Below are positions 24,295 through 25,664 of a DNA stretch of 64,000 nucleotides, in pieces (the stretch's first letter is position 1; each line of letters begins with the position of its first letter). Source of the stretch: Promethearchaeati archaeon SRVP18_Atabeyarchaeia-1 (GTDB lineage: Archaea; Asgardarchaeota; Atabeyarchaeia; Atabeyarchaeales; Atabeyarchaeaceae). The DNA lies in NCBI GenBank assembly GCA_037308085.1, contig CP147779.1:2688001-2752000 (forward strand), written 5' to 3'. Under the pieces are notes generated by a model. It was not told the DNA's origin and did no database searches. It saw nothing but the letters and a program-made list of their open reading frames with translations. The position numbers and the translations under genes were made by a program.

Positions 24295-25664
24295 TCACAT
24301 TTGGAAACCTGTTCTGCCGCCGCCCCACTTAGTGAGAGCAGTCTTCAGCTCCTCATGTTCCTCAGCGTAGTCACTGACCTTGATACCCTGCATCACCGCA
24401 TCAATCGCTTGCCTAAAGGCTCTTGCACCAGCAGCTGGACCGTCCGGGTGAGCGTGGACTACGGGTCCATCAATTAAAGATGGACTTTCCGCCTCCGGAC
24501 CCGATCATGATGTTGTTGCCGAGCATTTTCATGGTTTTCTCCACGTGGCCGGCAGTAATACCACCGCTTGGCATAGGCATCGTCGGCTTGATATGCTGCA
24601 AAGGAAACTGTAATCGCTTCGCCATCATCAAAAATTTGTCCTCAAGCAACGGAGCTTTGCCGTAGGGCGCCGGAACCAGGGCTATATCGGTCCCACATAT
24701 GCGCGGTAGCTTGGACATTATGAGAGACGGGGATACTCCCGTTATTGGACTATAGCTGATTTCGCCAGCCTCTTCAGCCGTGTGCGCCGGCTATGTCCAT
24801 ATGCCCCATTATTGGCAATGTGTTTGGTTCTTCTGCTACCATGCGTAGGGCGTCGTATCCGACTGCGAGGTAGTTGATGAGTAGGGCGTTTCCGCCTGCC
24901 TGTTTGACTTTGTCGGCGTTTTCGAGTAGTTTGTCTACTGGGCCGGTTATGTTGCAGCAGTAGAGTGTCTTTTCATCTTTTTCTTTGTTTGCTTTTTCTG
25001 CTTTTTCCATGTAGAGTGGGACGCGGTCTTCTATTTTGTTGTATGCTGGGTTGGCGATGATTTCGTCGTCTTTTATACAGTCAGTTCCGCCTACTGCGGC
25101 GCCGTAGAAGAGTTCTGCGCCTACTTCGGGCGTGTAACCCGTCTTGGGTTTTATCATATTATTCAGGAGTGGCCGTTTGGGTATGTCCATGAGGTCTCTT
25201 ATTCCTTGGAGTCCGTGTTTGGGTCCTTTGAATCCTTTGAGCCATTGTTTGGGGAACCATAGGTCCATGAGTTTGATTCTTCCGCCCATGCTGAGGTTGC
25301 CGATGACTGTGCTGAGTAGCATGGGGATTTCTGTGCCGAAGTTTTCCCATGGGAAGCCTACTGCGATGATGAAGTTGCGGTGGTCTACTTCCTTTGGGAC
25401 GGAGTAGACGTATTCGGGTGTTTCCCAGATGCCGAGTACTTTTGCTTGTCGCTTGATTTTGAGTTCTACTGTTTCGCCTGGGACTGGGGTCCAGGTGCCT
25501 GTGCTTTGTTCTAGGGCTGCCATTTCTGCTACGTCAGTTATTGGTAGTGCGGGGTTGAGTCCTGCGAAGTAGAATCCGATGACGTATTTGTCTGTGTCGA
25601 GGCCGTCGAAGAATCCTTGGGGTTGGGCTTCTATGGGTATTTCGTTTGGTTTTTCTTCAGACAA
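24295..25664 (-). CDS. RuBisCO-like protein (form IV), three exons: 25664-24782, 24759-24487, 24458-24295; 439 aa after splicing
   Basis: EQSTGTW, GNLS, IKPKTG, KDDE, PSGG, GGGIHAHPDGPAAGARAFRQAIDA; exon lengths 883+273+164 = 1320 nt in one frame. Confidence 0.9.
24459..24486 (-). other. Putative 28-nt BHB intron 2 in the RLP mRNA
   Basis: GCGG-AA^A-GUCCAUC-uuuaauu-GAUGGAC-CCGU-AG^U; removal restores GGG-I-HAHP. Confidence 0.82.
24760..24781 (-). other. Putative 22-nt BHB intron 1 in the RLP mRNA
   Basis: AUAGCCG-GCGC-AC^A-CGGCU-gaaga-GGCUG-GCGA-AA^U-CAGCUAU; removal restores AGA-L-SYSPITG. Confidence 0.78.

What the first reader, a model, noticed from the sequence alone, without database searches (positions are those of the whole stretch)
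24459..24486. 28-nt bulge-helix-bulge intron inside the conserved GGG-I-H-x-H-P motif of a protein-coding gene
Seen: the frame breaks exactly within GSGGG|HAHPDG. The insert folds as a 4-bp central helix (GCGG/CCGU), two 3-nt bulges (AAA, AGU) and a perfect 7-bp inner stem (GUCCAUC/GAUGGAC) with a 7-nt loop. Established: the archaeal splicing endonuclease EndA cuts BHB motifs after the second nucleotide of each bulge. Cutting there removes 28 nt, restores the frame and creates ATC (Ile), giving GGGIHAHP. To my knowledge mRNA BHB introns are known mainly from crenarchaeal cbf5, so one in an RLP gene of a probable Asgard archaeon would be notable. Standard annotation would call this gene a pseudogene. 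The outer helix is weak (1 bp, then a more distant GUCCGG/CCGGAC pairing).
Basis: partly seen in the sequence, partly recalled or inferred. Interest (0 to 1): 0.88.

Follow-up and report, generated by a model that had tools for sequence, protein, structure and literature searches.

The report
tRNA-type mini-introns in Asgard gene
A RuBisCO-like enzyme gene of an Asgard archaeon is interrupted by two tiny introns (22 and 28 bases) of the kind normally found in archaeal tRNAs; close relatives carry such introns at other places in the same gene, so gene finders cut a working gene into fragments.

Summary
Removing window 24459..24486 (minus strand, 28 nt) joins GSGGG to HAHPDG through a new ATC (Ile), and intron-less orthologs read GGG-I-HAHPDG there. 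The insert has a 4-bp central helix, two 3-nt bulges and a 7-bp inner stem.

This finding did not mention a second break in the same gene. It is a 22-nt insert (24760..24781) that also obeys the bulge-helix-bulge (BHB) cut rule and yields AGA-L-SYSPIT, as in orthologs.

The 28-nt intron recurs at the same site in Atabeyarchaeia-2 and in one metagenome contig, with two compensatory base-pair changes in its stem. Other relatives lack it but carry BHB introns at five further sites of the same gene: 12 instances at 7 sites in all. dN/dS is 0.02-0.09 in all three exons, so the gene is not a pseudogene.

The genome encodes a two-paralogue, (alpha-beta)2-type EndA and RtcB. No RNA evidence was available.

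In the library searched, confirmed mRNA BHB splicing is reported only for crenarchaeal cbf5, and nothing is reported for Asgard protein genes.

This scan had already noted the same kind of intron in this genome (ahcY followed up; gatE, mtnP and others noted). Another note on an overlapping window covers this locus and reports both introns.

Verdict: real, first reading supported, new member of a known kind, high interest.

The parts
24782..25664 (-). Exon 1 of the RuBisCO-like protein gene (TTG start at 25664, through ...MGHMDIAGA plus the first base of the split Leu codon)
   Evidence: ORF list and translations; Pfam RuBisCO_large_N and RuBisCO_large positions 2-140; 60% identity to full-length Asgard orthologs.
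24760..24781 (-). Intron 1, 22 nt (ACGGCUGAAGAGGCUGGCGAAA). Bulges are ACA (24783..24781) and AAU (24761..24759). The central helix is GCGC/GCGA (3 pairs plus G.A), the inner stem is CGGCU/GGCUG with loop GAAGA, and there is a strong exon-exon outer helix. It carries an in-frame UGA.
   Evidence: Removal gives AGA-L-SYSPITGVS; orthologs have L/W/M there and no gap. The blind BHB scan recovers exactly 24760..24781. 1.1e-3 of genome positions have central and inner helices as good, 1.2e-4 when the outer helix is included. The predicted fold contains nearly this structure. Only this genome has it.
24487..24759 (-). Exon 2 (last two bases of the Leu codon, SYSPITGVS...IMIGSGGG, first base of the Ile codon)
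   Evidence: Translations; Pfam RuBisCO_large up to profile position 254 at its last residue; dN/dS 0.04-0.07 against L001/L002.
24459..24486 (-). Intron 2, 28 nt: the reported feature (AGUCCAUCUUUAAUUGAUGGACCCGUAG). The central-helix 5' strand GCGG lies in exon 2 (24492..24489). Bulge 1 is AAA (24488..24486). The inner stem is 24485..24479 with 24471..24465, and the loop is 24478..24472. The central-helix 3' strand is CCGU (24464..24461) and bulge 2 is AGU (24460..24458). It carries an in-frame UGA.
   Evidence: Orthologous 28-nt introns sit at the same site in L006 (CP147780.1) and L007, with two compensatory pairs and one GU-to-GC change.
24295..24458 (-). Exon 3 (last two bases of the Ile codon, HAHPDGPAAGARAFRQAIDAV...GFQM, stop TGA at 24297..24295)
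   Evidence: Translation; Pfam RuBisCO_large 256-299 from residue 1; dN/dS 0.018 against L001.

Best explanation
The gene is an intact RuBisCO-like protein gene whose pre-mRNA carries two bulge-helix-bulge (BHB) mini-introns of 22 and 28 nt. At each site, four exon bases upstream of the 5' splice site pair with four intron bases just upstream of the 3' splice site. This forms the 4-bp central helix, flanked by two 3-nt bulges on opposite strands, and the rest of the intron forms a hairpin. The host's heteromeric, (alpha-beta)2-type splicing endonuclease EndA cuts after the second base of each bulge, and RtcB joins the exons and probably circularises the intron. The spliced mRNA encodes a 439-aa protein colinear with intron-less orthologs. 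Shown here: the anatomy, exact frame and residue restoration, purifying selection on all exons, conservation of intron 2 with compensatory changes, presence/absence polymorphism of such introns in the same gene, and the enzymes in the genome. Inferred: cleavage and ligation in vivo.
For: Exact restoration: both cuts predicted by the BHB rule give a protein that aligns without gaps to intron-less orthologs, and Pfam profile coordinates are contiguous across the break. Chance is low: a BHB as good at the required position and length occurs at 1e-3 to 5e-5 of genome positions for each of four tested introns. The required register is the best or nearly the best of 168 neighbouring registers for 12 of 12 instances, and in offset scans only the correct offset pairs well. 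Conservation: the 28-nt intron is at the same site in Atabeyarchaeia-2 (L006) and in contig L007. 35 of 36 pair cells are standard pairs, there are two double compensatory changes in the 7-bp stem and one GU-to-GC change, and pairing collapses when partners are slid. Polymorphism: relatives 92-96% identical in exon-1 protein sequence lack it and have the intact GGG-I-HAHPDG, but carry BHB introns elsewhere in the gene. More distant Asgard genomes have them at two more sites. Function retained: dN/dS is 0.02-0.09 in each exon, including those downstream of the frame breaks. Machinery: there are two EndA catalytic-domain paralogues, one closest to the A. pernix alpha subunit 3p1z_B, and one RtcB. 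Asgard EndA is reported as (alpha-beta)2 with the L1 loop linked to broad specificity (PMC5829648). Context: the published Atabeyarchaeia genomes, which this one matches, are reported to have introns in 92-95% of tRNA genes (PMC11291895), and ARAGORN finds only 22 tRNA genes here, most with introns of 11-33 nt. gatE, ahcY and mtnP of the same genome are split in the same way.
Against: There is no RNA-level evidence. The large protein collection holds no product spanning either junction for this strain. The BHB fold of intron 2 is 5 kcal/mol above the predicted optimum, the folding z-scores are unremarkable, and its outer helix is only 1 bp. Intron 1 has a G.A in the central helix, and its minimum-energy fold puts the bulges 3 bp apart, which would cut 21 nt rather than 22. 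Covariation rests on three sequences, and the shuffle control is not significant (111/500). My genome-wide motif-plus-ORF scan showed no excess over controls, so how common this is remains unmeasured.
Confidence: 0.85

Rival explanations
1. Translational recoding: ribosomes bypass (hop over) or frameshift across the inserts, as in phage T4 gene 60 or the byp elements of Magnusiomyces mitochondria, with no RNA splicing.
For: The inserts are short, contain an in-frame stop right after the take-off region and form a hairpin. In the window a GGA lies before the insert and another GGA inside it, near its 3' end.
Against: Landing on the second GGA would give GGG-PVV-HAHP, two residues longer than every ortholog in an otherwise invariant motif. 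The matching GGA is absent from the orthologous introns of L006 and L007. What is conserved is the BHB pairing, including the 4-bp exon-intron helix that hopping does not need. A simple +1/-1 shift cannot avoid the stops and would add 7-9 residues.
Confidence: 0.04
2. The gene is a decaying pseudogene and the inserts are ordinary indels that happen to fold.
For: There are two frame breaks with stops, and automatic gene calls are truncated.
Against: dN/dS is 0.02-0.09 in all three segments at dS 0.5-2. No other indel is seen against orthologs. There are twelve inserts at seven sites in eight assemblies, and every one has the BHB register that restores the protein. Compensatory changes occur in intron 2.
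Confidence: 0.03
3. Sequencing or assembly artefact at the two sites.
For: Intron 1 (22 nt) is seen only in this genome.
Against: Intron 2 is present in three independent assemblies and the site-B intron in two. The published genome that this one matches in size was curated from Illumina reads and validated with Nanopore and PacBio reads (PMC11291895). Artefacts would not form BHB motifs in the required register.
Confidence: 0.01
4. The inserts are excised from RNA, but by something other than EndA/RtcB, for example a different structure-specific nuclease as with IRE1 on HAC1/XBP1 mRNA, or they are self-cleaving.
For: No enzyme assay exists. The outer helices are weak, and a small frame-shifting mRNA intron joined by RtcB is also what XBP1 shows (my own knowledge).
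Against: The geometry is exactly 3-4-3 with cuts after the second bulge base in 12 of 12 cases, which is the EndA signature. 22-59 nt is too short for group I or II ribozymes. I did not look for other candidate nucleases.
Confidence: 0.05

Closest known systems
cbf5 pre-mRNA BHB intron of Crenarchaeota (Watanabe et al. 2002; Yoshinari et al. 2006; Yokobori et al. 2009, PMC2738675)
   Same: It is a short intron inside an archaeal protein-coding gene, bounded by a bulge-helix-bulge motif. It is cut by a heteromeric (alpha-beta)2 EndA, is gained and lost between related species, and has been confused with frameshifts by annotators.
   Different: The host gene differs (RuBisCO-like protein, not cbf5), and so does the phylum (Asgard: Atabeyarchaeia and others). 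There are two introns in one gene, seven intron sites in the same gene among relatives, and several other genes of the same genome are interrupted. PMC2738675 states that splicing had been confirmed for no gene other than cbf5. Here nothing has been confirmed experimentally.
Non-canonical BHB introns of archaeal tRNA genes, very abundant in Atabeyarchaeia and Freyarchaeia (PMC11291895; bioRxiv 10.64898/2026.10.13.758758)
   Same: Same motif, same size range (11-33 nt introns in this genome), same presumed enzymes, many independent gains, and unique sequences rather than repeat families.
   Different: The substrate is an mRNA, so there is no tRNA scaffold to help form the outer helix. Removal must preserve a reading frame, and every instance carries an in-frame stop. 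Neither paper mentions protein-coding genes.
Unconventional splicing of HAC1/XBP1 mRNA (IRE1 plus tRNA ligase/RtcB) in eukaryotes
   Same: In XBP1, a tiny 26-nt intron is cut out of an mRNA by a structure-specific protein endonuclease and the exons are sealed by RtcB, which changes the reading frame (my own knowledge).
   Different: IRE1 recognises paired stem-loops, not a BHB, and the event is a regulated stress switch. Nothing here shows regulation.
Translational bypassing elements (T4 gene 60; Magnusiomyces byps)
   Same: Short inserts of 27-55 nt in coding sequence with a stop after the take-off codon and local structure (my own knowledge).
   Different: Those need matched take-off and landing codons and no exon-intron 4-bp helix. 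Here the matched codons are not conserved and the BHB is.

Membership tests
Archaeal BHB (EndA-type) intron | [quoted passage not shown] | tested here: met
   Intron 2: GCGG/CCGU 4/4 (one G-U) with bulges AAA and AGU. Intron 1: GCGC/GCGA 3/4 plus G.A with bulges ACA and AAU. All 12 instances have 3-4 of 4 central pairs.
Archaeal BHB (EndA-type) intron | Flanking helices (strict hBHBh' form: outer exon-exon helix and inner intron helix) | tested here: inconclusive
   The inner helix is strong (7 bp in intron 2, 5 bp in intron 1). The outer helix is strong for intron 1 (5 of 6 pairs, then more) but only 1 adjacent pair for intron 2, so intron 2 is a relaxed form. Relaxed forms are reported to be substrates of (alpha-beta)2 enzymes (PMC5829648).
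Archaeal BHB (EndA-type) intron | Cutting after the second bulge base at both bulges yields the functional mature RNA | tested here: met
   It gives AGA-L-SYSPIT and GGG-I-HAHPDG, colinear with intron-less orthologs and contiguous in Pfam profile coordinates.
Archaeal BHB (EndA-type) intron | Host encodes the splicing endonuclease and an RtcB-type ligase | tested here: met
   Two PF01974 paralogues; one aligns end to end with the A. pernix alpha subunit 3p1z_B (E 5e-46) and the other is divergent. One RtcB.
Archaeal BHB (EndA-type) intron | Structure maintained in evolution (covariation) | tested here: inconclusive
   Three orthologous copies of intron 2 show 97% of cells paired, 2 compensatory pairs and 1 GU-to-GC change, and slid controls collapse to 25-44%. 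The shuffle control is not significant with only 3 sequences.
Archaeal BHB (EndA-type) intron | Excision and exon ligation observed in RNA | not testable with these tools
   No transcript data were reachable, and no junction-spanning product is in the protein collection.
RuBisCO large-subunit family / RuBisCO-like protein | RuBisCO_large_N plus RuBisCO_large catalytic domain over the full length | tested here: met
   Pfam hits in all three exons jointly cover profile positions 2-299. The gene is full-length colinear with 435-441-aa Asgard homologs.
Bona fide carboxylating RuBisCO (forms I-III) | Complete set of active-site residues (for example the His-Arg pair after strand beta-5) | not tested
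   KPK and KDDE motifs are visible, but the gene reads GHMD where I recall HR. That comparison is from memory only. Sources name the homologs variously as RLP, enolase or carboxylase.

The most novel reading that the evidence does not exclude
BHB introns are not a curiosity of one gene. They form a dynamic population that invades protein-coding genes of Atabeyarchaeia, Freyarchaeia-like and other Asgard lineages, turning over between strains (seven sites in this one gene). Each carries an in-frame stop, so unspliced mRNA yields only a truncated product. On this reading, EndA/RtcB splicing is a routine and possibly regulatory step of mRNA maturation in close archaeal relatives of eukaryotes.
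Probability: 0.5. Interest if true: 0.92.

Novelty: new member of a known kind. Interest (0 to 1): 0.8.

Why it matters
Within the library searched, confirmed archaeal pre-mRNA splicing rests on one gene, cbf5, in Crenarchaeota. Here a metabolic gene of an Asgard archaeon carries two such introns. Relatives 74-90% identical in coding DNA carry them at different codons, and at least three other genes of the genome are split the same way.

This has three consequences:
- Intact genes in these genomes are being called truncated or pseudogenes, which distorts metabolic reconstructions.
- The tRNA-intron expansion reported for these lineages extends to mRNAs, giving a tractable system for studying how protein-dependent introns are gained and lost in coding sequence.
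- Coupled transcription and translation would have to coexist with mRNA splicing in close archaeal relatives of eukaryotes, a question usually discussed only for the origin of the nucleus.

Tried and rejected
1. Genome-wide census. I scanned both strands for the BHB register (L 10-100). I required that the cut join two open, codon-usage-positive frames, then that the stop lie inside the intron, then that the register be locally best. Counts never exceeded the mirror-orientation and shifted-cut controls (for example 98 vs about 100, 27 vs 26.7, 181 vs 174). Ordinary same-strand gene boundaries swamp the signal, so I give no estimate of how many genes are affected. The scan did recover RLP introns 1 and 2 and the gatE, ahcY and mtnP introns blindly.

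2. Spliced products. Two searches of the 5.8-billion-protein collection, with exon 1 (near lengths) and exon 2 (longer lengths), found no protein of this strain spanning a junction.

3. Mobile-repeat origin. blastn-short of seven intron sequences against the genome found no other copies.

4. Truncated homologs P0182 and P0157 in Promethearchaeota looked like further split genes, but they simply end at contig ends.

5. Translational hopping on GGA...GGA was rejected (see the rival explanations).

6. A scan hit inside this window (53818..53848, minus strand) sits at a gene start and looks like a false positive.

7. The mirror-image bulge arrangement was considered and set aside. From my own knowledge of the canonical pre-tRNA motif, it is not the EndA geometry. 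All instances have the canonical arrangement.

Full report
**The feature.** The gene lies on the minus strand of the window. Three reading frames each carry part of a RuBisCO large-subunit homolog:
- 25664..~24780, ending ...MGHMDIAGA;
- ~24760..24487, reading SYSPITGVS...IMIGSGGG;
- 24458..24295, reading HAHPDGPAAG...GFQM-stop.

The insert reads AGUCCAUCUUUAAUUGAUGGACCCGUAG. Upstream exon bases GCGG pair with intron bases CCGU. AAA and AGU are left as 3-nt bulges on opposite strands, and GUCCAUC/GAUGGAC forms a 7-bp stem around a 7-nt loop. This is the canonical orientation of the archaeal bulge-helix-bulge (BHB) motif, in which each strand reads helix, four central bases, bulge. Cutting after the second base of each bulge removes 28 nt.

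**A second intron in the same gene.** The first break, not mentioned in this finding, behaves the same way. Orthologs read MDIAGA-(L/W/M)-SYSPIT. The window has 25 nt between the GCA (Ala) and AGC (Ser) codons, so 22 nt must go. My blind BHB scan returns exactly 24760..24781. Its features are:
- central helix GCGC/GCGA, with three pairs plus a G.A;
- bulges ACA and AAU;
- inner stem CGGCU/GGCUG;
- a long exon-exon outer helix, GGACAUAGC with GCUAUAGUCC, that ViennaRNA also predicts.

The product is AGA-L-SYSPIT. The doubly spliced gene encodes 439 aa and aligns to eight intron-less homologs without a gap at either site. Pfam RuBisCO_large coordinates run to position 254 at the last residue of exon 2 and resume at 256 at the first residue of exon 3, so the split Ile codon is the missing position.

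**Is this more than chance?** A loose BHB pattern is common: about 30-40 hits per 1.4 kb at 3 of 4 central pairs and 5 or more inner pairs. The motif alone therefore proves nothing. The test is whether it sits in the one register that restores the protein. At the observed lengths, the fraction of all genome positions with central and inner helices at least as good was:

| Intron | Fraction of genome positions |
|---|---|
| Intron 1 (window) | 1.1e-3 |
| Intron 2 (window) | 1.1e-4 |
| L001 intron | 4.8e-5 |
| L002 intron | 3.7e-4 |

Even allowing three equivalent registers each, the joint chance is of order 1e-13. Among 168 neighbouring registers (offset and length each +/-6), the required one is best for 8 of 12 instances and has at most four equals or betters in the other four.

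**Relatives.** The nearest proteins in the large collection are truncated calls: P0001 (96% identical to exon 1, 383 aa) and P0002 (92%, 345 aa). Their contigs explain the truncation.
- L001 is intact at both window sites (AGAWSYSPIT; GGC GGT ATT CAC = GGIH). It has a 31-nt insert between DIMI and GSGGG.
- L002, and the independent assembly L008, are intact at both sites (GGT ATA CAC). They have a 31-nt insert between SYSPIT and GVSPSL.
- L006, the chromosome of Candidatus Atabeyarchaeum deiterrae Atabeyarchaeia-2 (CP147780.1), lacks intron 1 but has a 28-nt insert at exactly the GGG|IH site.
- L007, a metagenome contig, has that same 28-nt insert. It also has an in-frame 33-nt insert with a TAA between LPIM-A and HMDIAGA.

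A search of 40 related genomes found the same gene split again. G033 has a 32-nt insert at PAPYG|K. G037, a 3.6-Mb single contig, has a 59-nt insert at that same site plus a 30-nt insert at EVY|PAP. G028 has a 30-nt insert at EVY|PAP. In every case only the protein-restoring offset shows good central and inner pairing. In total there are 12 instances at 7 sites in 8 assemblies (L002 and L008 are two assemblies of the same sequence).

**Conservation of the reported intron.** The three copies of the 28-nt intron differ at up to 6 positions, yet 35 of 36 pair cells are standard pairs. Stem pair 2 is U-A in the window and C-G in both relatives. Stem pair 3 is C-G (window), U-A (L007) and C.A (L006). 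The G-U of the central helix becomes G-C. The remaining changes fall in the loop and in a bulge. Sliding the partners by 1-3 columns drops pairing to 25-44%. With three sequences the shuffle control is not significant (111/500), so this is supportive rather than decisive.

**The gene is under selection.** Against L001 and L002, dN/dS is as follows:

| Segment | dN/dS | dS |
|---|---|---|
| Exon 1 | 0.07-0.09 | 0.5-0.7 |
| Exon 2 | 0.04-0.07 | about 2 |
| Exon 3 | 0.02 (L001 only; dS saturated against L002) | 1.8 |

The segments downstream of the frame breaks have therefore been read in the predicted frames over a long period. This excludes a pseudogene, and it excludes an artefact for the insert seen in three assemblies.

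**Host and machinery.** The genome is one 2,808,651-bp contig. This matches the 2.81-Mbp complete Atabeyarchaeia-1 genome, which was curated from Illumina data and checked with long reads (PMC11291895). That paper reports introns in 92-95% of tRNA genes, often several per gene and at non-canonical positions. Consistently, ARAGORN finds only 22 tRNA genes in this genome, most with introns of 11-33 nt, and none in the window.

The genome has two EndA catalytic-domain paralogues. One (209 aa) aligns along its length with the alpha subunit of the Aeropyrum pernix heterotetramer (3p1z_B, E 5e-46) and with other crenarchaeal alpha subunits. The other (241 aa) is divergent. This fits the (alpha-beta)2 type with the L1 loop, which is reported for Asgard archaea and linked to broad substrate range (PMC5829648). 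One RtcB is present.

**Not an isolated case in this genome.** Earlier notes of this scan list BHB introns in gatE, glyA, ahcY (followed up and confirmed), rpl39e, mtnP, pcm and the SRP RNA of the same genome. One note on an overlapping window describes this same RLP gene with both introns. I treated these as leads. My blind scan independently returns the gatE (41 nt), ahcY (34 nt) and mtnP (35 nt) inserts. Pfam shows each flank pair to be two parts of one domain: PNP_UDP_1 runs to position 173 and resumes at 176; AdoHcyase resumes at 225; GatB_N matches 2-30 upstream and 45-276 downstream. I did not test the others.

**What I could not show.** There is no transcript evidence, and two searches of the protein collection found no junction-spanning product of this strain. 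My attempts at a genome-wide count failed for lack of specificity: same-strand gene boundaries produce as many hits in controls as in the true register. The BHB conformation of intron 2 is 5 kcal/mol above the predicted optimum. Intron 1's optimum has the bulges 3 bp apart, so the enzyme-bound register must differ from the free-RNA optimum.

**Rivals.** Hopping from GGA to a downstream GGA would insert two residues into an invariant motif, and the landing codon is missing in the orthologous introns. A pseudogene and an artefact are excluded above. A different nuclease cannot be excluded without an assay, but the 3-4-3 geometry with cuts after the second bulge base in 12 of 12 instances is the EndA signature. 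The introns are single-copy sequences, not a repeat family.

**Comparison with what is known.** Mechanistically this is the cbf5 case of Crenarchaeota. PMC2738675 states that splicing had been confirmed for no other archaeal protein gene, although others had been predicted. Five further literature searches, together with searches within the Atabeyarchaeia genome paper and the 2026 preprint on Asgard tRNA introns, found no report of BHB introns in Asgard protein-coding genes. I therefore file it as a new member of a known kind. The new points are the host lineage, two introns per gene, and strain-level turnover of positions.

**Verdict.** Confidence that these are EndA/RtcB-spliced mRNA introns is about 0.85, and interest is 0.8.

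Noticed in passing
window 15040-15186 (-) and 16075-16200 (-): There are two extra partial copies of the last ~125 nt of the RLP gene (AFRQAIDAVMQG...GFQM-stop), roughly 83-87% identical to the real 3' end by my count of the alignment. They flank what looked to me like a nucleotidyltransferase/HEPN-type gene pair at 15329-16023 (not checked against Pfam). 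Atabeyarchaeia-2 has three such fragments. They look like att-site duplications left by elements integrating into the 3' end of the RLP gene. No integrase was recognised by Pfam among the large ORFs nearby.
   Followed up: partly
all 12 intron instances (window 24760-24781, 24459-24486; L001, L002, L006, L007, L008, L019, L029, L031): Every intron contains a stop codon in the frame of the upstream exon. Composition-matched shuffles give 0.2-0.6 per intron, so the joint chance is about 0.0075 for the five frame-shifting sites, where detection did not depend on the stop. This may limit translation of unspliced mRNA, but AU-rich loops and ascertainment may explain part of it.
   Followed up: partly
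window 24295-25664 vs L001/L002: Synonymous divergence is about four times higher in exons 2-3 (dS 1.8-2.1) than in exon 1 (0.46-0.71) between the same pairs. Nucleotide identity among the four orthologs is 85-90% in exon 1 but 74-78% in exon 2. The cause is unknown; recombination, or constraint on exon-1 RNA, are possibilities.
   Followed up: no
L033 (G024), L034 (G014); G025 and G020 matches (no locus fetched): Homologs of the other RuBisCO type (about 40% identical) in four further Asgard genomes each show one in-frame stop (TGA, TAA or TAG) inside an otherwise full-length match. These could be in-frame BHB introns. They were not examined.
   Followed up: no
own genome 187770-188987 (+), outside the window: A second RuBisCO-family gene, uninterrupted (434-aa open frame, 40% identical to P0003).
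   Followed up: no
own genome 2219068-2219108 (+), 488226-488259 (+), 980252-980286 (-): gatE, ahcY and mtnP are each split by a 41-, 34- or 35-nt insert in a BHB register that rejoins the two halves of one Pfam domain.
   Followed up: partly
whole genome: ARAGORN detects only 22 tRNA genes in 2.8 Mb and none in this 64-kb window. Several calls have implausibly long introns (301-1569 nt), as expected if most tRNA genes are heavily interrupted.
   Followed up: no
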